Virus record (IMG/VR): IMGVR_UViG_3300022937_000026
Span: 1 to 58,136 of that record
Strand: one strand, 5' to 3'
DNA: 58,136 bases
Origin: a virus
Lineage: Duplodnaviria > Caudoviricetes
Position 1 is the stretch's first letter, and every line of letters starts with the position of its first letter. Shown here piece after piece: positions 2,298 through 58,136 of the stretch. The translations under genes were made by a program, and so were the position numbers. The notes under the pieces were generated by a model. It was not told the origin of the DNA. It made no database searches and saw only the letters and a program-made list of their open reading frames with translations.

Positions 2298-3192
2298 AAA
2301 GAAATATTATTATAGCGAAATCTTTCACAGCATTCAAGGTGAAGGACATTATACAGGTGTACCTACTGCATGGATCAGATTCTTTCTATGTAATTTACAA
2401 TGCAATGGTTTTGGACAAATAGATCCTACAAATCCAGATACATATGAATTACCGTTTGAAGATTTTGATACTAGTACTGTTACTCGTGTAGAAGATTTGC
2501 CTGTATGGGAAAAAGGTTGTGATAGTTCTTACACATGGAGCAAGAAATTTAAACACTTAATGGGTCAAAAGACTGCTGTTGAACTTGCACATGATATTAT
2601 TAATGTATTAAAAACAGATTCTAATCCAGAAGGTTTGTTTTTGCATCCAGTAACAAAACAGAGACAACACTTCTGTGTTACTGGTGGTGAACCTTTAATG
2701 AAACACGCACAAGAAGCATTTATTGGTATTATGCGTGAGTTTGAACGTTTAGGTAATTTGCCTGCAAGTGTTACATTTGAAACAAATGGCACACAGCCAC
2801 TTACACAAGAATTTATTGATTATTGGATGAATGAAGCATCGGGTATCGAATTATTTTTTAGTGTATCGCCTAAACTTTGGTCAGTTGCAGGTGAAACTGC
2901 AAAAAAAGCAATTAAGCCTGAAACAGTAGCACAATATAGAAATTTATCTAAAAACGGACAGTTAAAATTTGTAGTAGGCAGCGAACAAAAACAATGGAAT
3001 GAGATGGAAGAAGTCATTTCACAATTCAAAGAACAAATGGTTGATTATCCTATTTGGGTTATGCCCGTTGGTGCTAGAGAAGAAGAACAAACTGCAACAG
3101 CAGGTGCTGTTGCTAAAATGGCATTTCAAAGAGGTTATAATGTAGCCGCAAGGGTACACGTATACTTGTTTGGTAATGCTATTGGAACATAA
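2281..3192 (+). CDS. queE: QueE-like radical SAM enzyme (7-carboxy-7-deazaguanine synthase family)
   Basis: EIFHSIQGEG..TGVP..WIRF..CNLQC, then CDS, VTGGEP, FETNGT, SVSPKL and RVHVYLFGN; start is ATG 2275 or 2281. Confidence 0.75.
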   Translation: MKIATEKKYYYSEIFHSIQGEGHYTGVPTAWIRFFLCNLQCNGFGQIDPTNPDTYELPFEDFDTSTVTRVEDLPVWEKGCDSSYTWSKKFKHLMGQKTAVELAHDIINVLKTDSNPEGLFLHPVTKQRQHFCVTGGEPLMKHAQEAFIGIMREFERLGNLPASVTFETNGTQPLTQEFIDYWMNEASGIELFFSVSPKLWSVAGETAKKAIKPETVAQYRNLSKNGQLKFVVGSEQKQWNEMEEVISQFKEQMVDYPIWVMPVGAREEEQTATAGAVAKMAFQRGYNVAARVHVYLFGNAIGT

Positions 3193-35500: not shown

Positions 35501-38500
35501 GTTTTAGTCTATATTCATTTGAACTATCTGGAACGTAATCGAATATATATGCACTACCTTGATTCTGGAAATTAACATCTGCTTTAGGACTTGTTACAAC
35601 AATTTTTTCACCTGTAGAATCAACAGCTACAGCATAACCGAATTGATCGCCCGATGAAATAATTTCTGCAACATCTAAATCACTTATATCTTGTAAACCG
35701 TCTGCTGTAAATGTTTGTGTAAGTTCAAAAAGGTTAAGATTAAAATCACGCTTGTAAACAAAAACTTTACCTGTTGATTCAGAACTACTATCACCTACGT
35801 TAACCCAAGGATAACCTGCATCTGGTTCTTCGTTATAACTCTTAATGGTACTACCGTCATCAACTGCGCTAGGACCAATGTTTTCTAATTTATGGAATTG
35901 ACCTTGATATTTTACAACGTCACCTTCGATATACTCGTAGTCTGCTCTCCAAATTCCTCTGTAGTTTGCAAAATATTGTTTGTCGCTGAACGGAGCTCCA
36001 ACAACTAATACTTCACCGGTTGAATTCATAGCCATACTGTATCCAAACTTATCTCCTTCTTGAATAAGTTCAGCTACTTGTAAAGGTGAAAGTAAACCTG
36101 CAAACAATGTACTCTTATCTTCTGCTTCTTCTAAACTAACAGATTGAGGTAAAGAGTTAGCAGTTGCCAACGAGTCTAGTCTTAGCCAGTCAACACTATC
36201 TATGTCAATAGTGCTGCCGTCGCCTTGTGTATCATTAACTGCTTGCCACAAATATCCTTGATGCCATACTATTGAACCTTTCGGATATAGTTTAGATTCA
36301 TCTTTTTCATATGCACCTACATAATTAGGATTTTCATCAAGCTCCCAGTCTTCAGTTTCTGCATTATAGGTATAAAGATATATTCTACCTTTACTGTCTA
36401 ACGAGCCAGGGGCTGATACTGCCATGTAGTAAACACCTTCGTTCTTAGCAATTGAAATTCTAGATCCGAAGTGTTCGTAATGTTCTGGTCTTGGACTAAT
36501 ATAAGAATGTGTTATGTTCCATTGGTTAGCACTGTATTCATATATTTGAATCATACCTTGCTGAGTTTTACCGTCGTCTGTACCAGTTGTTAGTGCATCA
36601 ATATTTTTTACATATTCCCATTCATCAGACTCAAAATTAATTGAGCTTCCGTCAAATGTTGTATCAGTTAATGCTTTCCAAAGTTTTCCTTCGTATAATA
36701 CAATACTGTTAGAACCATAACTAATCGAAGGATTAAAATTACCTTTGAAGTTTGATGTAACTCCACTTGCACGAGGTGAACCTATTGCAAGCCATTTATT
36801 ATCAGGACTTACTGCAAGTTCTAAACCAAAACTTCCTAGTGTAGAATCTTTAAACGTACCTTGTGGTTCAATAATTTGTTTTACATCTAGTCCTGTTGAA
36901 GTTTCAACATAAACAACAACATAACCGTCAGGTGCGACACTAGCAAGTGTCTGTTTCAGTGCATCAATATATAAAACTTTTTCACCGACTTTATTAGGTT
37001 CAACAATACCAAAATTAACAATCTGCTTGTCAGTATATGTTTTATTTTTTTCTACAACTTCCCATCTTCCGTTAGTATCTTCGTCAACAAAAAGTTTACT
37101 TGATTGAGATAAGTTAGCAACGTGTTGCGGATCAATACTATCCCAATTTTTAAATCTTGCTTCAGTAAAGAACAATGGATAATTTAGTGTGCTTGGTTCA
37201 AACACATCTGCTGTTGCTTTTTCTGTAACATTAAATGTTATAGAAAAATTATCTACTGCTGTGATTTTATGAATTCCAGAAATTTTATCGATACCTTTAA
37301 TACCAATAAATTCTCCTACTTGTTTGTTATGACGTCTTTTAAAGATAACTTTTACTGAAAGGTTATCAACTTCAACATTTATTAATTGTAAATCGTAGGC
37401 CCAGTTTGCTCTAAGAACTGTCCAACTAGGACCATCAAATGTAATCCATATATGATCATTGTTTAAAACAGCATCTACATTGATATCTGATAAATTATCT
37501 CTTGTTCTAACAGTAAAGTTTGTTTGACCAATTTTTACATACCCTGCTGTTTTAAATGGATACACTTCGTATGACGCAGGATTAATTTTTGATGTATATG
37601 GATATGGAGCATAATCAAAATTACTTTTGTTAATTCTATAAAATCTGTCTAAGAAGTTTCCTTGAGATTCTGTAATTAATACAGGCTGAGGATTAATTAC
37701 AAACTGATCTGTTTGTAATTTTATTTCAGCATGATAACTTTGATCAATGCCTCCCATTGATCCTACTTTAAATGCCCATTCCTCATCTAAAGAAATGCTA
37801 GGCTGACCACTACCATTAATTTTGTCGAACAGTTTTGTAATTGAATTTGATGTTCCTTTTTCTCTAATAAAACCTTGATAGATTTTATATTGTGTTGTAG
37901 GATCATCTGCTAATGCTTCTAAATAAGTTCTTTTCTGATAACCAATAGTATGCCTTGCTAATTCTCGTTGACTCTTACCTAAACCATCAGTATCAACATC
38001 AAAATAATCTTCAATTTGATTGATTCTATAATCAAAGTTAGGAATTAGTTGCTTAGTTGGATTTGAATCCAATACTGTCCATCTATCGAAATCAAATTTT
38101 TCTCCACTAGTATGATTAAATTTACTTGTGTAGTTTTTAGATCTATAAGCAACAATGTCACCTAGTTTATAATTTTTAAATGGTACCCATGCATCTATGT
38201 TAACATTATCAAAAATAAATCCTGGTGATGTATAATCTCCATCCCAATCGACTGTTCTAAATCCTTGAGAACGAATTCTTTCTTGACGATAGCCTGTTGG
38301 TTTATCGTAGATAATATCGTTAAACACTGTTCTATCGTTAAACACTGTAACGTGTTCTTTTAATACATAATTTACTTTAAGGTAATATATACCAACAGCA
38401 CTATTATTAATAGAAATAGTAAATGTTTGGAAATCTCGAGATACATCAATGTCTTTTACATCAATAGTAGTTCCGTCACTTGATAGAACATTGTAATCAT

Positions 38501-48992: not shown

Positions 48993-51676
48993 TAGGTTTC
49001 AAAAATCCTTCTAATTGTTCCATCTGGTAGTGTTTCGTCAACAAATGGTTTAGTTTTGTCAATATTAAAGTTTACTATTGTTCCATTTGACTGTCTACGT
49101 CTTAATTGTATTTCAGGCTCAGCAGGTTTTTGAGGTCCTTTCGGTCCGGCTTTTAGTAATGATTCTGGAATTCCAAGAGAACGTGCAAGATCTTTAAATG
49201 CATCTTCGAGAGTTGCTGTATCTTGTATAACTGGTGGAGTTTCAGCTACTGTTGTTTTTGGTTTTTCTTCACCGCTAAATTTAACTTGTAGAGCATCAGC
49301 TTTACTTTGTGCAAGGAATTTCTCATCATAGTCTAGTGTTTGTCCTTGCATTCTTACACATTTAAGAACCTGAGTAAACTTATTTGATGAAATCTTATGT
49401 TCGCATCGTACAACTCTATATATTCCACTAAACGGACTTTCTTTATCGTTCTTGAATTGCATTAATCCGTCAGTGCCTATGTCTTCTGGAGTTCTCCAAC
49501 CGATATAGATATAAACATCCTGGTCTTCATAGTTTGCTGTTCCATCTTCAGTAATTTGTTCTCCAGATTTAGAAGAGAAATAATTGTTAAATCCATGATC
49601 GATCATATAATATGGATCGCCCATAATTTCTAGATCAACCATAATCAAATCTGCAGATGTTCCTTTAATAACTGCTTCGTGGAAAGACTGAGCAACTTTT
49701 TGTTTAACATCTTCATATCCAAATCCACCCTTCTTCATTTGCCATAACAAATTAGGATCTCTCTTAACTTTAGACTTAGGCAAATTACCAGCTGCTGCTT
49801 CTACAGTTGCACCTTCACCGGCGGTGGCTTTGTCAGCTTCTTTTGCGACTGTTCCTTGTTGGTTTTTCGTAACGTTTGTCTGTGATGCCCTTTCTGGACT
49901 AGGATTTGAACCTGCGTAAAAAAGATTGTTGAAATTAATTTTAAAATCTATAATATCTACATTTTGTCCTGTATAGATATACTCGTATTTCTTACAAATA
50001 TTTTTTTGTAATTCTGGATAGCCAATTGGCGCTGCCTGAGGATTACTAAACACACTGTTATGAACTTTAAAGGGATAAATTCTAAAGGTATATTTTTTAG
50101 CAAAATCACCTATAACAGGATCGTAGTCTAAAAGTTTTACCTGCACACTTACTTTAAACCATTTAACAAAACCTTCAGGTGTTAAATTTTCAGGCTTACT
50201 AACTGCATCACTACAATATGTACTTCCTAAAATAACCTGTTGAATAACATCGGTTATAGATTGTCCTTGAGTAAAATAAAATTCTCTACTTTTAGGATCA
50301 ATTGACATTTTTCCTCTATTAACTCTGCCTGTTTTTTCGTCACGAACATCTCCTTGTTTAGGGTTGATGTAGTTACCGCCATAAGTAGATGCAAAACCAA
50401 AACCTGCTTCTGAAATAGGATTTGATCCTACTTCTGTAGTAGTGGTTGCAGTTTGTCCTCCAACTGATCTGCCAGGTGGATCAGATGGATTAACTGTTGC
50501 AGTGCCTTGCTCTGTTCCTGCTTCTGGAGCAGGATCATCATATGATTCCATAGGAAATACAACTTCGTAAATATCAGGCTTACTATATTTTCCTGCTTCT
50601 ACGTTTCTTTTTTCATTATCATTTAAAACTTTAACTAAACTTTTTTCACTTTCTACTAATACTTCCTTAACAGTTCCTTTTCCGAAAGTTGCAGGCTTAA
50701 TACTGAAATTACTCCATATAGTATTAACTGTATCAGAAAACGCCTGTTCACTAAAAGGATATGCTTCAACACTATATTTGCTGCCAGATTCGTCAACTTC
50801 AAATCCTACTTTTTTAAACTTGATACAAAAGTATTTAGGTTTAACAGAACTTATTTGACTTCCGTTTTCATGCCAACCTTTAATATCTAATTTTAACAAA
50901 TAAGGTGCATCTAAATAGTTAAGATATCCTGCTTCAATCGCACCGACTTGAAGCGATTGTAACAGTAACCCCATACTGAAAGGTTCAAAAATAGTAAAAT
51001 TAAAACTAGTAGCATTTGTAATTCCTGTCTTAGGATTGGCTGCAATTACCGACTGCATTGTAAAATCATCTATATAATATTCAGGTGAGCCACTTGCAGT
51101 TTGTGTTCGGTATGCATCTCCTCTACCGCCAGAAGAAAATATTACAGAACTTTTTAGTTTGACAAAATCTTGTTGTCCCATTGCTACTCTTCCTGTAGCA
51201 ATAGTTTGTGAGCCGCTTGAAATAAAATCTAAACTATTTGTTCTATACGACGATGGGTTATTATATTGCTTAGGAGTAAGAACAACTAGTGAAAATAAAT
51301 GATTAACAGTTGCAAAATTTTCCATTGGGTTTGCAACTAACCCAGGTAAATGATGTCCTGCTCTTGTATGCTTTGAAACAGAAACAGGAACAACATCTCC
51401 TACACCGTTACTAATATTGTTTACTGCTGATTCTTCTTTTTTTCCTGTTGTTTTTTCTGCTGTGCCTTTCGATACTGTTGTACCGGCAGGAAATTGCATA
51501 ACCGGAGAACCATCTGGTTTTTTATTTAAAAATTGATCGAGTTGTTGTTCTGTTCCGAAGATACGAGTTTTTTGTCCGCGAATTTCAATATCTCTAAAAC
51601 CCTGTGTTCTATCAATATTAAAGTTTACTAGCTGACCGTTGTCTTGTATCCTTCTTTCTACAAACTCAGAAATCAT
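48992..51676 (-). CDS. Baseplate hub protein, gp27/VgrG-like
   Basis: Located between the gp53-like and gp5-like genes; LEIMGDPYY, FSGIYRVVRCEHKISSNKFTQVLKCVR. Confidence 0.6.
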   Translation of the reverse strand: MISEFVERRIQDNGQLVNFNIDRTQGFRDIEIRGQKTRIFGTEQQLDQFLNKKPDGSPVMQFPAGTTVSKGTAEKTTGKKEESAVNNISNGVGDVVPVSVSKHTRAGHHLPGLVANPMENFATVNHLFSLVVLTPKQYNNPSSYRTNSLDFISSGSQTIATGRVAMGQQDFVKLKSSVIFSSGGRGDAYRTQTASGSPEYYIDDFTMQSVIAANPKTGITNATSFNFTIFEPFSMGLLLQSLQVGAIEAGYLNYLDAPYLLKLDIKGWHENGSQISSVKPKYFCIKFKKVGFEVDESGSKYSVEAYPFSEQAFSDTVNTIWSNFSIKPATFGKGTVKEVLVESEKSLVKVLNDNEKRNVEAGKYSKPDIYEVVFPMESYDDPAPEAGTEQGTATVNPSDPPGRSVGGQTATTTTEVGSNPISEAGFGFASTYGGNYINPKQGDVRDEKTGRVNRGKMSIDPKSREFYFTQGQSITDVIQQVILGSTYCSDAVSKPENLTPEGFVKWFKVSVQVKLLDYDPVIGDFAKKYTFRIYPFKVHNSVFSNPQAAPIGYPELQKNICKKYEYIYTGQNVDIIDFKINFNNLFYAGSNPSPERASQTNVTKNQQGTVAKEADKATAGEGATVEAAAGNLPKSKVKRDPNLLWQMKKGGFGYEDVKQKVAQSFHEAVIKGTSADLIMVDLEIMGDPYYMIDHGFNNYFSSKSGEQITEDGTANYEDQDVYIYIGWRTPEDIGTDGLMQFKNDKESPFSGIYRVVRCEHKISSNKFTQVLKCVRMQGQTLDYDEKFLAQSKADALQVKFSGEEKPKTTVAETPPVIQDTATLEDAFKDLARSLGIPESLLKAGPKGPQKPAEPEIQLRRRQSNGTIVNFNIDKTKPFVDETLPDGTIRRIFET

Positions 51677-54132: not shown

Positions 54133-55143
54133 ATGCCGTTATTTAAAAAAGCAGCCTGCTTTACTGATATTCATTTCGGAATGAAGTCGGGTAGTAGACT
54201 ACACAATATAGATTGTGAAGAATTTGTAAAATGGTTTTGCGAACAAGCAAAATCTGCTGGTGCTGAAACCTGTGTGTTTTTAGGAGACTGGCACCATAAC
54301 CGTGCGACTACCGATGTCAGCACAATGAACTATACAGTTTCAAACTTAGAAAGACTCAACGAAACATTTGAAAAAACTTATTTCATGGTTGGTAACCACG
54401 ATTTGTTTTACAAAGACAAACGTGAAATTAACTCCATTGAGTTTATGAGATTGTTTCCGAATATTATTCCTGTAACTAATCCATTCACTGAAGGCGAAGT
54501 AACTATGCTTCCCTGGTTAGTTGAAGAAGAATGGAAGACCGTTAAGAATATTAAAAGTAGATATGTGTTTGGACACTTTGAACTTCCGTATTTTAAAATG
54601 AATGCTATGGTAGAAATGCCAGATCATGGTGAACTACAGGCAGACCATTTTGTTAATCAAGAATATGTGTTCTCAGGACACTTCCATCAACGTCAAACAA
54701 AAGGCAATGTAACTTATATTGGTAATGCATTTCCGCACAACTACGCAGATGCATGGGATGATGAACGTGGCATGATGTTATTGGAATGGGGTGGAACACC
54801 TGAATACCGTACTTGGCCAGGACAACCAGTATATAGAACTTTTAGATTGAGTCAATTACTTGAAAAACCAGAACAGCATTTAAAAGAAAAAATGCATTGT
54901 CGAGTAACAATTGACATTCCAATCACGTTTGAAGAAGCAAACTTTATTAAAGAACAGTTTATTCCAGAGTACAAGTTACGTGAATTAATGTTAATTCCGG
55001 AAAAAGTAGAAGTAGATTCAAATATAGATCCAATTGATCTTTCATTCGAAAGTGTTGATACTATTGTAATGAATCAGATCGAACAGTTAGACAGCGAAAC
55101 GTATGACAAGCGTATGCTGACGGAGATTTATCGAGACCTATGA
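54133..55143 (+). CDS. Recombination endonuclease subunit, gp47 / Mre11 / SbcD-like
   Basis: Metallophosphoesterase motifs TDIHFG, GDWHH, GNHD, GHF and SGHFH. Confidence 0.92.
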   Translation: MPLFKKAACFTDIHFGMKSGSRLHNIDCEEFVKWFCEQAKSAGAETCVFLGDWHHNRATTDVSTMNYTVSNLERLNETFEKTYFMVGNHDLFYKDKREINSIEFMRLFPNIIPVTNPFTEGEVTMLPWLVEEEWKTVKNIKSRYVFGHFELPYFKMNAMVEMPDHGELQADHFVNQEYVFSGHFHQRQTKGNVTYIGNAFPHNYADAWDDERGMMLLEWGGTPEYRTWPGQPVYRTFRLSQLLEKPEQHLKEKMHCRVTIDIPITFEEANFIKEQFIPEYKLRELMLIPEKVEVDSNIDPIDLSFESVDTIVMNQIEQLDSETYDKRMLTEIYRDL

Positions 55144-56918
55144 TCAAGATTAAAAATATAACAGTTAAAAACTTTATGAGTGTGGGTAATCAAACCCAAG
55201 CAATTGATTTTGATAAAGGAGAACTTACACTTGTTTTAGGTGAAAACCTAGATCTAGGCGGAGACGATAGTGGTTCTAGAAACGGCACTGGTAAAACTAC
55301 TATCGTTAACGCACTGAGTTATGCAATCTATGGTAATGCACTAACAAATATTAAACGAGATAACCTTATCAATAAAATTAATGGTAAGGGAATGTTGGTT
55401 ACTATTGACTTTGAAAAAGACGGAATTAATTATTCTATCCATAGAGGACGTAAACCTAATATTATGAAGTTTACAGTCAATGGAGAAGAAACAACTCCTA
55501 TTGATCAAGATGAAAGTCAAGGTGACAGTAGAGAAACACAAAAGGCTATTGAAGATTTATTCGGTATGAGTCATGATATGTTCAAGCATATCCTTGCTTT
55601 GAATACCTACACTGAGCCTTTTCTTTCAATGAAAAGCAATGATCAACGTGCTATTATTGAACAGTTACTTGGTATTACAATGCTTTCTGAAAAAGCAGAA
55701 GCACTAAAAGAAAAAATGCGTGAAAACAGAGATGCAATTAACGCAGAAAATACAAGAATTGAAACTGTTAAGGCTTCTAACGAAAGAATACAACAAAATA
55801 TCGAAAGTTTAGAACGTAAACAAAAACTTTGGGAAGATAATAAACAAACAACTATTATAGATCTCGAAAAAAGTATTCAATCATTAGAAAAAATTGATAT
55901 CGAAGCTGAAATTGATGCTCATAAATGCTGGGAACGTTTTAATGATAAGAAGCGTAAGAAGGAAGAAGCAGAACGTTGGATTGCTTCTATCACTGCTGAC
56001 AATCAAAAACAAGAAAAATTAATTTCTAAACTAAAAGCTGAACTAGAATCAATTGACAAACACGAGTGTTATGCTTGTGGCCAATCACTTCATGACTCTA
56101 AACAGGAAGAAATCAAGAAACAAAAAGAAGAATTGCTATACGAAGCAGCTTCACAGATTTTAACTAATCAAACACAAGAGCATGAACATTTAAATGTAAT
56201 AAAAGAAATCGGAGAACTTGAAAGTTGTCCGCATACAGAATATGATTCTGTTGAAGAAGCATACAATCACAGAAGCACAGTTGAAAGTTTGCAGAAAGAA
56301 CTAGATCAAAAACGCAAAGAAGACAATCCGTATCTAGAACAGATTGATGATTTAAAAGAAACTGCATTGCAAGAAGTTAGTTTTGACAAGTTAAATGAAC
56401 TTACAAAGGTAAAAGATCATCAAGACTTCTTATATAAACTCCTTACAAACAAGGATTCGTTTGTACGTAAAAAGATCATTGAACAGAATCTAGCATATCT
56501 AAATCAACGTCTAACTTACTATCTTTCTAAGGTAGGATTACCACATATTGTTGAGTTTCAGAACGATTTAACAGTGGTTATTACACAACTAGGACAGGAC
56601 TTAGACTTCGATAACCTCAGTAGAGGTGAACGAAATAGACTCATTTTAAGCCTAAGTTGGGCATTTAGAGATGTTTGGGAAAGTTTATATCACGGTATTA
56701 ATTTACTGTTTATTGACGAACTTGTAGACAGCGGTATGGACAGTGCAGGTGTTGAATCTAGTATTGCAATACTTAAGAAAATGACACGTGAGAGACACAA
56801 AAATGTATTCTTAATTTCACATAGAGATGATCTTGCAAGTCGTGTTAACACTGTTCTTAAGGTTATTAAAGAAAATGGGTTTACATCTTACTCAAATGAT
56901 GTAGAGATTGTACAATAA
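55140..56918 (+). CDS. Recombination ATPase subunit, gp46 / Rad50 / SbcC-like
   Basis: Walker A NGTGKTT, coiled coil, zinc hook CYAC, signature LSRGE, Walker B LLFIDE and H-loop ISHR. Confidence 0.93.
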   Translation: MIKIKNITVKNFMSVGNQTQAIDFDKGELTLVLGENLDLGGDDSGSRNGTGKTTIVNALSYAIYGNALTNIKRDNLINKINGKGMLVTIDFEKDGINYSIHRGRKPNIMKFTVNGEETTPIDQDESQGDSRETQKAIEDLFGMSHDMFKHILALNTYTEPFLSMKSNDQRAIIEQLLGITMLSEKAEALKEKMRENRDAINAENTRIETVKASNERIQQNIESLERKQKLWEDNKQTTIIDLEKSIQSLEKIDIEAEIDAHKCWERFNDKKRKKEEAERWIASITADNQKQEKLISKLKAELESIDKHECYACGQSLHDSKQEEIKKQKEELLYEAASQILTNQTQEHEHLNVIKEIGELESCPHTEYDSVEEAYNHRSTVESLQKELDQKRKEDNPYLEQIDDLKETALQEVSFDKLNELTKVKDHQDFLYKLLTNKDSFVRKKIIEQNLAYLNQRLTYYLSKVGLPHIVEFQNDLTVVITQLGQDLDFDNLSRGERNRLILSLSWAFRDVWESLYHGINLLFIDELVDSGMDSAGVESSIAILKKMTRERHKNVFLISHRDDLASRVNTVLKVIKENGFTSYSNDVEIVQ

Positions 56919-56923
56919 TAAGT

Positions 56924-57178
56924 ATGGCAACTGATTCTCATGATAAAATGATCGAAGCGTTCCAAAACTACTTCAAGTGGCAGGAGCGTTTTGAGTACAA
57001 AGGATCAGATGAAGCTGGTATTAAAGCTCGTTTCTGGTTATCTGAAATTAGAAACTTTGCAAGTGTACGAAGAAAAGAAATACAAGACAAACGATCACAT
57101 CGAAAAGAATCCAGAAAAGGTATGGTCGGACGTCCATCGAAAATAAACAATAGTAATGGCACAGAAATCGAAGACTAA
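56924..57178 (+). CDS. Hypothetical basic protein
   Basis: 84-aa ORF with a helical, Arg/Lys-rich C-terminal half. Confidence 0.7.
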   Translation: MATDSHDKMIEAFQNYFKWQERFEYKGSDEAGIKARFWLSEIRNFASVRRKEIQDKRSHRKESRKGMVGRPSKINNSNGTEIED

Positions 57179-57722
57179 AGGAAAATCATTTGAACGTGAA
57201 GTTGCTAACTTCCTCAGCGACTTGTACGAAGAGTCGTTTATCCGGGTACCGGGTAGCGGCGCATACGTTGGCGGAGCCAACGCTTCGCGCAAGGACAGCT
57301 TGTCCGAAGGACAAGTTCGCGGAGCGAAAAGCGATATTATTCCGCCTGACGGTTGGAAATACTTTAACGTTGAATGTAAAAACTATGCCGACTTTCCATT
57401 CCATCATCTGTTATGGAATAAATCAATTCCGCTGCTAGACAGCTGGATTGAACAAACCCTAGAACCTGCTGATCCAGGTGATTGCAACCTACTCGTTATG
57501 AAGTTCAATCGCAAGGGTCGTTACATAGCGTTCGAAACCAGAATTGCCGATCGAATATCGCCGGCGAGAGTATATACAAATAGGCACGTTACATACAGGC
57601 ACACCAAATCAAATACCGAATGGTTTATCACAGAATTTGACGACTTTTGGTCTCTCAACAAGGCAGCATTCAAAGAACTCTGCATCGGCGGCACTGAAAT
57701 TTTCTCCTCGCAAGGCCAATAG
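57156..57722 (+). CDS. Holliday junction resolvase-like nuclease (PD-(D/E)xK, Hjc-type)
   Basis: KSKTKGKSFEREVA, RVPGSGA, SDII and VECK (E-x-K). Confidence 0.75.
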   Translation: MAQKSKTKGKSFEREVANFLSDLYEESFIRVPGSGAYVGGANASRKDSLSEGQVRGAKSDIIPPDGWKYFNVECKNYADFPFHHLLWNKSIPLLDSWIEQTLEPADPGDCNLLVMKFNRKGRYIAFETRIADRISPARVYTNRHVTYRHTKSNTEWFITEFDDFWSLNKAAFKELCIGGTEIFSSQGQ

Positions 57723-57726
57723 GCAA

Positions 57727-58136
57727 CTACACCGTTAATTAAGCCTGCACCGGCAACTGATATGGTGCCCAAAATCCGTGGTGATGTCGCACGGTAAGGA
57801 ATTCTCTGGGTAACGGCGGAGTGGCAACAGCACTATCCTTGACAGGACGACGATCGGATATGCCTACATAGAACCGGTTTGCTGTGTAATAATAAAGTAA
57901 TGAATAGGCTAAAAGAGTGGGTCATTCCCACAGGTTATGCTTGGAGATAGCATTTCAAGACATAACTGCCGTTGTACGTAAGATACTAAGACGGAATGAG
58001 TAGGTACCGGATAACCGCCTGCGCTAGGTTGTACAATATACAAAATATATTAGAATTTTGTGTAAAATATTGTAAATTATACAATCTTGTAGTTCTAATG
58101 CTATTGTGACTGTGCGAACTCAGATGATGTTCAAAA
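57727..58136 (+). ncRNA. Putative large structured non-coding RNA (unclassified; may continue beyond the window)
   Basis: No credible ORF; at least nine helices identified by eye, including nested multi-branch junctions, several containing G-U pairs on the + strand. Confidence 0.55.

What the first reader, a model, noticed from the sequence alone, without database searches (positions are those of the whole stretch)
57239..57328. Cluster of GNA-triloop hairpins encoded inside the resolvase gene (candidate ssDNA signal or origin)
Seen in sequence: four hairpins with a 3-nt G-N-A loop occur within 90 nt. They are TATCCGG-GTA-CCGGGTA (57239-57255, one G-T pair), CGTTGGC-GGA-GCCAACG (57266-57282), CTTGTCC-GAA-GGACAAG (57299-57315) and TTCGC-GGA-GCGAA (57316-57328); three are closed by C-G. 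Bases 57241-57300 are 40/60 G+C in an otherwise AT-rich window, achieved with codons rare elsewhere here (CGG, CCG, GCG, CGC). Established: C-GNA-G triloops form unusually stable DNA mini-hairpins; N4 virion RNA polymerase promoters use them, and hairpin clusters mark primase-recognition origins such as that of phage G4. Inference: the gene carries a second, structural code, such as a replication or priming origin, a hairpin promoter, or a cruciform substrate for the resolvase it encodes.
Basis: partly seen in the sequence, partly recalled or inferred. Interest (0 to 1): 0.8.

Follow-up and report, generated by a model that had tools for sequence, protein, structure and literature searches.

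The report
Conserved hairpin pair inside phage nuclease gene
Two small G-N-A-looped hairpins written into the codons of a nuclease gene of an uncultured T4-like giant phage are kept by evolution at "silent" positions in its closest relatives, so the gene carries a second, structural message whose job is still unknown.

Summary
All four hairpins are at the stated coordinates. WIN also has two more codon-aligned hairpins (57198-57212, 57293-57305).

They exceed chance. Permuting synonymous codons gave as many hairpins in at most 1 of 20000 trials. At window scale the excess is moderate: about 0.18 such clusters are expected.

The decisive evidence is comparative. Eight distinct sequences from related marine and salt-marsh T4-like phages, 63-93% identical in protein, form one clade. 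They keep hairpin 2 (57266-57282) and hairpin 3 (57299-57315, base extended to 57288-57321).
- Silent-site variation is strongly reduced: 12/20 invariant codons against 14/78 outside, P=4e-4.
- Third-position G+C is raised.
- Two base pairs changed on both sides in at least three independent events.
- Three other clades of the same gene show none of this.

Hairpins 1 and 4 are not kept as drawn.

The element is single-copy and confined to this gene. It has no Rfam match and no conserved overlapping ORF.

Most likely it is a selected plus-strand fold. I favour a role in the operon mRNA (about 0.4) over a single-stranded-DNA signal (about 0.3). An N4-type promoter is unlikely.

The scan had noted G-N-A hairpin pairs beside RNA genes of related phages, but not this intragenic element.

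The parts
57156..57722 (+). Host gene: 188-aa PD-(D/E)XK nuclease, annotated elsewhere as 'D14 / RusA-like Holliday junction resolvase'. It is the last ORF of a gp47(SbcD)-gp46(SbcC)-small basic ORF-nuclease block.
   Evidence: Pfam PF24608 PDDEXK_15, E 5.6e-30. phrog_244, 1.3e-21. The gene order is kept in all clade members. No solved-structure relative by sequence.
57266..57282 (+). It encodes Y-V-G-G-A-N-A.
   Evidence: All cells paired in 8 of 8 sequences: 5 pairs invariant and 2 pairs with a one-sided change to G.U in 2 sequences each. The codons for V, G, G and A are invariant in 8 of 8, although each is four-fold degenerate. Predicted in all 8 sequences with both RNA and DNA parameters.
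57288..57321 (+). The base pairs the Arg45-Lys-Asp codons with the Val/Ile54-Arg55 codons.
   Evidence: RNAalifold consensus. Apical stem 100% paired in 8 of 8. Pair 76-90 is T-A in 4 and C-G in 4. Pair 75-91 is C-G in 2 and T-A in 6. On a tree built without these codons, that needs at least three independent double changes. The basal pairs show only G-C to G.U changes, with no covariation. In WIN and L037 the base is drawn differently.
57239..57255 (+). Lineage-variable, not part of the conserved core.
   Evidence: 69.6% of cells paired. Full stem only in WIN and L038. A 4-bp CCGG core is kept in 6 of 8. It is destroyed by three synonymous changes in both L037 and L105.
57316..57328 (+). The 5-bp stem is lineage-variable, but the heptamer GCGGAGC (57319-57325) is invariant and overlaps the 3' base of stem-loop B.
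   Evidence: Pair 93-103 is formed in 3 of 8 and pair 94-102 in 6 of 8. The heptamer columns are invariant in 8 of 8.
57293..57305 (+). Alternative 5-bp hairpin (GGACA / TGTCC) that competes with hairpin 3 for the TGTCC arm. GGACA is repeated at 57309-57313.
   Evidence: Found. Both arms are invariant in the 8 sequences, except one C-to-T change in L037. There is no covariation to support it.
57198..57212 (+). Extra codon-aligned 6-bp hairpin (loop GCT), present only in WIN and L037.
   Evidence: The sequences show it broken in L038, L039 and L002.

Best explanation
A clade-specific nucleic-acid fold is written into the codons for the conserved 'SG...D' active-site loop of a PDDEXK_15 nuclease. 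Its conserved core is two + strand stem-loops with G-N-A triloops: 57266-57282, and 57288-57321 with apex 57299-57315. The other hairpins are lineage-specific additions.

Shown. The fold is maintained by selection on silent sites and, in part, on amino-acid choice: Ala41 and Arg55-Gly-Ala-Lys are peculiar to this clade.

Inferred. It acts in the transcript. The hairpins lie 110-165 nt into the last ORF of the gp47-gp46-small ORF-nuclease operon. I read them as a post-transcriptional throttle or stability determinant. Ribosomes must unwind this stable block (about -30 kcal/mol for the 62-nt core). It can also stop 3'-to-5' decay or mark a processing boundary. Either effect would keep output of a potentially toxic structure-specific nuclease low and uncouple it from the upstream gp46/47 message.
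For: Silent-site constraint. Across 8 distinct sequences, codons 38-60 have an invariant codon in 12 of 20 amino-acid-invariant degenerate columns, against 14 of 78 elsewhere in the gene (Fisher 3.9e-4). The deepest pairs agree: WIN-L105 has 18 same and 2 different in the region against 45 and 52 outside, P 0.0002. Seven control pairs from other clades give P 0.5-0.98. Three other clades (n = 40, 13, 15) show no dip.

Covariation. Two pairs changed on both sides, in 6 cells, with 0 of 500 shuffles as high. 88.5% of cells are paired, against 32-42% when partners are slid. At least three independent double events are needed on the tree. In 106 non-clade sequences the same two silent sites are complementary in only 49, with C.A in 39.

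Stability. All 8 members fold better than their own codon-permuted versions, z -2.9 to -4.8, with 0-1 of 100 permutations as low. 36 control homologues average -1.06. Third-position G+C in the segment is 0.52-0.61 against 0.28-0.47 in the rest of the gene. In 108 non-clade genes it is 0.35 against 0.32.

Strand. All five one-sided changes give G.U on the + strand and none gives C.A. The extended stem has one-sided bulges.

Other points. The segment lies inside a transcribed ORF. RNA-library contigs from three studies cover 57169-57457 at depth 2-5, which is a weak hint only. No conserved overlapping ORF explains the constraint.
Against: Nothing here separates RNA from + strand DNA. Both parameter sets predict the two stem-loops in all 8 sequences.

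Several features fit DNA better.
- Triloops closed by C-G, with the heptamers GCGGAGC (twice) and CCGAAGG, are the hallmark of unusually stable DNA mini-hairpins (passages of PMC13037366). They are not known to me as unusually stable RNA loops.
- The second GCGGAGC is invariant even where its longer stem is lost. That suits a 2-bp DNA mini-hairpin better than an RNA helix.

The G.U argument is weak. At these sites only C-to-T changes are synonymous or likely. By my hand count, wobble-giving transitions were seen at 5 of 10 possible sites and mismatch-giving ones at 0 of 4, about P 0.1.

The hairpins are not at the ribosome-binding site, where known phage mRNA switches act. Only 8 distinct sequences in about 5 lineages were available. 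The RNA contigs may be DNA carry-over and cannot show ends or strand.
Confidence: 0.4

Rival explanations
1. Single-stranded-DNA signal. The same + strand hairpins fold when the DNA is unwound, for example on the displaced non-template strand of an R-loop or during recombination-dependent replication. They would then exclude SSB or recruit a primase, helicase loader or nuclease. On this reading they are an origin-like or priming signal placed in the recombination module next to a large non-coding RNA gene.
For: - The heptamers GCGGAGC (57271, 57319) and CCGAAGG (57304) are the same mini-hairpin sequences that the review PMC13037366 (passages) reports at the N4 early promoter and in RSF1010 ssiA.
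- The third base A of all three loops is invariant at silent sites in 8 of 8.
- GCGGAGC no. 2 is kept in 8 of 8 without its longer stem.
- Three of the window's nine GC-closed C-GNA-G heptamers on the + strand lie within 55 nt here.
- The DNA-parameter fold is significant, z -2.6 to -4.8 in 8 of 8.
- The gene sits in a gp46/47 recombination block followed by a conserved non-coding RNA locus.
- Unchecked earlier notes of this scan describe strand-specific tandem G-N-A hairpins beside a large RNA gene in related giant T4-like phages.
Against: - No GC-skew turn at the site.
- No AT-rich unwinding tract or repeats next to it.
- T4-type primases are not known to need hairpins (my own knowledge).
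- G.T pairs are tolerated in 5 pair columns. They cost more in DNA than in RNA.
- The first two loop bases are fixed by the Gly and Glu codons, so 'G-N-A' is partly a coding by-product.
- The element is missing from other clades with the same gene order, so it cannot be an essential origin of this phage group.
Confidence: 0.3
2. No function: a by-product. The peptide happens to be a string of 'codon palindromes' (R-V-P, VG-G-AN, LS-E-GQ, R-G-A). Template-switch (quasi-palindrome) correction or local gene conversion keeps the arms complementary and mimics both conservation and covariation.
For: - The hairpins are all codon-aligned, the phase in which complementary codons arise most easily.
- LSEGQ is conserved family-wide, and a 7-bp hairpin 3 also appears in 2 of 109 non-clade sequences, L042 and L043.
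- The whole gene has foreign, GC-richer codon usage.
- Hairpins 1 and 4 and the extra ones come and go.
Against: - The constraint has lasted while flanking silent sites became near-saturated, and SbcC next door fell to about 56% identity.
- It also covers the unpaired loop bases and the raised third-position G+C.
- It is a local dip flanked by divergence on both sides, not a recombination block.
- The clade members still differ inside the segment, so there was no recent transfer.
- Known templated-mutation hotspots use longer arms (my own knowledge).
Confidence: 0.13
3. Double-stranded palindromic binding sites. The two 17-bp perfect palindromes would be operators for dimeric DNA-binding proteins, and symmetric changes would mimic base-pair covariation.
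For: Each of hairpins 2 and 3 is a 17-bp perfect dyad with a central odd base. The covarying positions are the outer ones.
Against: - The two palindromes share no half-site.
- One-sided changes break dyad symmetry in 5 pair columns, yet always keep + strand wobble.
- The consensus extension of stem B is asymmetric, with bulges.
- Silent-site conservation of the loop bases and raised G+C are not needed for a duplex site.
Confidence: 0.05
4. N4-type hairpin promoter for a virion RNA polymerase. This is a special case of the DNA reading.
For: A 5-7 bp stem, a 3-nt loop, a C-G closing pair and the heptamer GCGGAGC match the promoter hairpin described in PMC4496689 and PMC13037366 (passages).
Against: - If the + strand were the template, the start would lie 5' of the hairpin and give antisense RNA.
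- The A-run 'ruler' next to the hairpin is absent at both GCGGAGC copies.
- One copy per record, inside an ORF, in 298 kb of five related records.
- No T7-like polymerase domain in four related fragments. That search was uninformative, because the records are 12-30% complete and the control genomes were silent.
- The gene order and late-promoter style are T4-like (notes).
Confidence: 0.02

Closest known systems
DNA mini-hairpins d(GCGNAGC) and relatives at the N4 early promoters, RSF1010 ssiA and the G4/St-1/alpha3 complementary-strand origins (review PMC13037366, passages read; N4 review PMC4496689, passages read)
   Same: C-G-closed G-N-A triloops. The very heptamers GCGGAGC (N4 promoter) and CCGAAGG (ssiA) occur here, twice and once. 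They are clustered, strand-specific and single-locus.
   Different: - They lie inside a protein-coding sequence of a T4-like double-stranded DNA phage.
- No A-run ruler and no cognate polymerase or primase identified.
- No single-stranded replicon stage is known.
- The stems are 7 bp or longer and covary, so more than the mini-hairpin core is kept.
mRNA hairpin control of a phage junction-resolving nuclease: T4 gene 49 (endonuclease VII). Recalled from my own knowledge, no paper read here.
   Same: A structure-specific nuclease of a T4-type phage whose message carries a stable hairpin thought to limit its translation.
   Different: In T4 the hairpin masks the ribosome-binding site. Here the stems lie 110-165 nt inside the ORF. 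The protein families are also unrelated (PDDEXK_15 against endonuclease VII).
Cis-acting elements embedded in coding sequence: lambda ori inside gene O and picornavirus cre in 2C. Recalled, not read here.
   Same: A nucleic-acid signal overlaid on codons, detectable as suppressed synonymous variation.
   Different: Lambda ori consists of iterons plus an AT-rich tract in duplex DNA. The cre elements are in RNA genomes. Neither uses tandem G-N-A triloops.
Tandem G-N-A hairpins beside a large non-coding RNA gene in related giant T4-like phages. Earlier notes of this scan, e1-5764934 and e1-6069611, unchecked by me.
   Same: Same kind of phage, same loop type, single copy, one strand, and the same neighbourhood (nuclease gene plus structured RNA).
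   Different: Those lie in non-coding DNA just behind the RNA gene. This one is intragenic and 400 nt upstream of the RNA. I could not compare the sequences.

Membership tests
N4 virion-RNA-polymerase hairpin promoter | Hairpin with a 5-7 bp stem, 3-nt loop, C-G closing pair, sheared G:A and a GC-rich heptamer (PMC4496689, PMC13037366 passages) | tested here: met
   57266-57282 and 57316-57328 both contain GCGGAGC with a GGA loop.
N4 virion-RNA-polymerase hairpin promoter | Conserved -17 to +1 block with an A-run between hairpin and start, acting as a ruler | tested here: not met
   The bases 5' of both heptamers on the + strand contain no A-run (compared with the passage).
N4 virion-RNA-polymerase hairpin promoter | Several copies heading early genes near a genome end | tested here: not met
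   A covariance model finds one copy per record, always inside the nuclease ORF, in five records totalling 298 kb. One search finds no other GC-rich G-N-A hairpin in the window.
N4 virion-RNA-polymerase hairpin promoter | Cognate T7-like virion polymerase encoded by the phage | tested here: inconclusive
   PF00940 is absent from four related records. They are 12-30% complete and the control genomes did not ring.
Single-strand initiation signals (G4 oric, RSF1010 ssiA) | Mini-hairpin motif within a hairpin cluster on one strand | tested here: met
   CCGAAGG at 57304-57310, the ssiA motif per the passage. Three GC-closed G-N-A heptamers lie within 55 nt on the + strand.
Single-strand initiation signals (G4 oric, RSF1010 ssiA) | Priming by a cognate primase on SSB-coated single-stranded template, in a replicon with a single-stranded stage | not testable with these tools
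   Needs biochemistry. No ssi sequence was available for alignment.
Selected structured element (RNA or DNA) overlapping a CDS | Suppressed synonymous variation confined to the element | tested here: met
Selected structured element (RNA or DNA) overlapping a CDS | Compensatory base-pair changes | tested here: met
   Two pairs in stem-loop B and at least three independent events. There are none in stem-loop A, which shows only G-C to G.U changes.
Any curated Rfam family | Covariance-model match | tested here: not met
   Searching 55000-58136 at E up to 1 gave only RF01718 at 57742-57889, outside the element.
Pfam PF24608 PDDEXK_15 (host gene) | Profile match above the curated cut-off | tested here: met
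   104.8 bits against a cut-off of 27, covering residues 4-172. The junction-resolvase activity itself is annotation only and was not tested.

The most novel reading that the evidence does not exclude
The tandem mini-hairpins are a single-stranded-DNA signal of T4-like giant phages. They would fold on the displaced + strand when the nuclease/RNA locus is transcribed or invaded. They would work together with the adjacent large non-coding RNA as an R-loop-type replication or recombination start site. In this clade the signal has been moved into the nuclease's own coding sequence, reshaping its amino acids.
Probability: 0.22. Interest if true: 0.8.

Novelty: new variant of a known kind. Interest (0 to 1): 0.55.

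Why it matters
Overlapping nucleic-acid codes inside the genes of double-stranded DNA phages are rarely documented with comparative evidence. This one is short (62 nt core) and sharply bounded. It is built from the same mini-hairpin heptamers that serve a promoter in N4 and a priming signal in RSF1010. It also seems to have steered amino-acid replacements in an active-site loop.

It sits in a conserved recombination block beside a widespread but unexplained phage RNA, the Polynucleobacter-1 family. Working out its role could therefore shed light on how uncultured giant T4-like phages control a junction-cutting nuclease or start replication.

The RNA-versus-DNA question can be tested directly with oligonucleotides and synonymous recoding.

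Tried and rejected
Tried, with no useful result:
- DNA similarity to cultured phages: none. By protein the best cultured relative is Salicola phage SCTP-2 at 45%. It is too distant for silent-site work.
- tRNA scan of the window: none.
- Overlapping ORF as the cause of the constraint: rejected. The in-phase antisense frame and the two other sense frames are interrupted, or lack a conserved start, in several clade members.
- Recombination breakpoint or recent transfer: rejected. Divergence dips locally and rises on both sides in nearly every pair, and differences remain inside the segment.
- Structure in other clades at the same place: not consistent. One outlier, L113, folds at -35.1, but its close relative L115 folds at -22.3.
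- Dispersed element: a degenerate pattern for the hairpin-3 context found 13 loci in the viral collection. Eleven are known clade members and two (L181, L183) are chance hits in an unrelated gene. A second pattern found 0 matches in one genome per prokaryote species.
- T7-like polymerase search: nothing, but uninformative.
- Sequencing runs: all were Logan contigs. RNA-library contigs of three studies overlap the segment at depth 2-5 with no variants. They cannot show ends, strand or level, and DNA carry-over is possible. I make no claim of a coverage peak or its absence.
- Link to the downstream Polynucleobacter-1 RNA: only WIN and L037 of the hairpin clade have it. L002, L038, L039 and the five larger clade loci do not, even at E up to 1. 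The two features are therefore separable.
- PDB by sequence: no relative.
- Literature: a search for 'GNA', 'triloop', 'hairpin', 'bacteriophage' together gave one unrelated paper. A search for 'Polynucleobacter-1' gave only Weinberg 2010, where I saw one table row. I found no printed description of this intragenic element in those searches. Supplements were not opened.
The comparative set stayed at 8 distinct sequences.

Rows dropped:
- L086 (76-aa fragment) was dropped, and identical nucleotide sequences were collapsed, so 175 loci became 120 sequences and 119 were aligned.
- L035 (28% identity) was left out of the non-clade counts.
- In one search, 36 controls were drawn at random from the non-clade set, 36 of about 108.

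Full report
WHAT IS THERE

The window is a 58-kb fragment of an uncultured virus record, estimated 16% complete. It is about 34% G+C.

The finding lies in a 188-aa + strand gene, 57156-57722.
- The gene belongs to Pfam PDDEXK_15 (E 5.6e-30).
- It matches the PHROG annotated 'RusA-like Holliday junction resolvase'.
- Upstream lie a Metallophos (SbcD/gp47-like) gene, an SbcC/gp46-like gene and an 84-aa basic ORF.
- Downstream lies a match to the Polynucleobacter-1 RNA family.

The peptides R-V-P, VG-G-AN, LS-E-GQ and R-G-A are 'codon palindromes'. Two more such hairpins are present, at 57198-57212 and 57293-57305.

IS IT MORE THAN CHANCE?

Window-wide there are 121 perfect triloop hairpins of at least 5 bp. 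A cluster of four is expected about 0.18 times. That is unusual but not overwhelming.

After G+C correction the folding energy ranks 2nd to 5th of 2902 windows.

Given the protein, however, the codon choice is extreme.
- 1 of 20000 gene-wide synonymous permutations reaches four hairpins.
- 0 of 20000 does so when permuting within the region at constant G+C.
- The folding energy lies 4.5 SD below permuted versions.

RELATIVES

Searches gave 175 loci encoding homologues, which collapse to 119 distinct aligned genes.

The encoded segment is the most conserved part of the protein in all of them, so there is no insertion.

Eight distinct sequences share the motif GGANA...LSEGQ(I/V)RGAKSD and form the hairpin clade. 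These are WIN, L037, L038, L097 (the same contig as L002), L039, L105, L093 and L088. They are 63-93% identical to WIN in protein. Gene order is conserved, while the neighbouring SbcC is only about 56% identical.

CONSERVATION OF THE FOLD

Stem-loop A (57266-57282) and the apical stem-loop B (57299-57315) are paired in 8 of 8. RNAalifold extends B to 57288-57321.

Two pairs of B changed on both sides: T-A/C-G in 4 and 4 sequences, and C-G/T-A in 2 and 6. A tree built without these codons requires at least three independent double changes.

Hairpins 1 and 4 are not conserved as drawn. The heptamer GCGGAGC within hairpin 4 is invariant, however.

Silent sites:
- 12 of 20 invariant codons in codons 38-60 against 14 of 78 elsewhere.
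- Pairwise tests across the deepest split give P 0.0002-0.05.
- Seven control pairs give P 0.5-0.98.

Controls that share the protein motif but not the hairpins show none of this.
- Three other clades have no dip.
- Control homologues average z -1.06 in folding.
- Third-position G+C is not raised (0.35 against 0.32), while the clade has 0.52-0.61 against 0.28-0.47.
- There is no complementarity between the two covarying sites (49 of 106).

The low divergence is a local dip, not a recombination block. No overlapping ORF is conserved.

A covariance model of the 62-nt core finds one copy per record, always in this gene, in 298 kb of five records. Nothing was found in prokaryote genomes, and the element matches no Rfam family.

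HOW IT MIGHT WORK

Shown: a single-copy, clade-specific fold under selection.

Strand. All five one-sided changes give G.T/G.U on the + strand, and the extension of B is asymmetric. Together these argue for a + strand single-stranded fold rather than a cruciform or a duplex operator. The test is weak, because at those sites C-to-T is the only easy silent change.

RNA or DNA is not resolved. Both parameter sets predict the two stem-loops in all eight.
- For RNA: the element is always inside a transcribed ORF at the end of an operon. It tolerates wobble pairs. A junction-cutting nuclease is the kind of product that phages keep at low level.
- For DNA: the loops and closing pairs are those of exceptionally stable DNA mini-hairpins. 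The exact heptamers are the ones reported for the N4 promoter and RSF1010 ssiA (passages of PMC13037366). One heptamer is kept where its longer stem is lost. Earlier unchecked notes of this scan report similar tandem hairpins beside the large RNA gene of related phages.

I commit to an mRNA-level throttle or stability element at about 0.4. A single-stranded-DNA signal follows at about 0.3 and a non-functional by-product at about 0.13.

The N4-promoter reading fails two defining features, the A-run ruler and multiple intergenic copies. It also does not suit a T4-like phage.

There is no GC-skew turn at the site.

COMPARISON AND NOVELTY

The motif level matches known DNA mini-hairpins. The setting is new to me: the element is intragenic, in a T4-like double-stranded DNA phage, it covaries, and it shapes amino-acid choice. 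My two literature searches did not find it described.

I class it as a new variant of a known kind, with moderate interest.

Noticed in passing
window 57742-57889 (+); also L037 1630-1776, L068 1683-1822, L078 2052-2191, L141 1499-1640, L169 1557-1701, L106/L107/L110/L112 1550-1690: The Polynucleobacter-1 RNA (Rfam RF01718, 63-115 bits against a cut-off of 37) starts 20-45 nt after the stop of the PDDEXK_15 nuclease gene. This holds in 10 of the 53 sources scanned at gathering threshold. In L078 the next sizeable gene is convergent. The RNA therefore looks like a 3' element or sRNA of the gp47-gp46-nuclease operon in phages. Weinberg 2010 (one table row seen) lists it instead as a 5' cis-regulator of Burkholderiales.
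   Followed up: partly
L038 2083-2540, L039 2050-2870, L188 (reverse) 1280-2100, L186 10435-10850, L187 5080-5480: Hairpin-clade members without RF01718 still have a gene-free gap of 400-800 nt after the nuclease gene. The gap is conserved among them: 77% over 451 nt for L038 against L039/L188, and 88% over 413 nt for L186 against L187. It has no Rfam match at E up to 1. It is probably a different, uncatalogued non-coding element at the same slot.
   Followed up: partly
window 57723-57921 versus L037 1611-1808: The non-coding stretch after the gene is 96% identical between WIN and L037 over 199 nt. The coding gene is only about 84% identical in nucleotides, so the RNA locus is more conserved than the gene.
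   Followed up: no
window 57156-57722: The whole nuclease gene uses GC-richer codons (AGC, TCG, CTC, CGC, ACC, GAC) than the window's long ORFs. The last kilobase is 44% G+C against about 34% for the window. This is a compositional island that includes the downstream RNA.
   Followed up: partly
window 3081-3185; also 55221-55325, 50401-50545, 37661-37765: Other 105-nt windows fold unusually well for their G+C. 3081-3185 folds at -38.7 kcal/mol at 41% G+C, 4.4 SD below the G+C trend, which is stronger than the finding itself by that measure.
   Followed up: no
window 57282-57288, - strand: The archetypal mini-hairpin heptamer GCGAAGC lies on the minus strand between hairpins 2 and 3. It is present in WIN and L037 only, because the other members have different codons there.
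   Followed up: no
window 56924-57178 (+): An 84-aa lysine- and arginine-rich ORF lies between the SbcC-like gene and the nuclease gene. It is conserved in all clade loci examined (39-52% identity). It has no Pfam or PHROG match.
   Followed up: no
window 57832-57880: In RNA-library and DNA contigs of the salt-marsh runs, this 49-nt core of the RNA is joined to unrelated flanks (loose ends at 57832 and 57880 in X15, X17 and X14). Other phages in the same samples therefore carry the same RNA core in different contexts.
   Followed up: no
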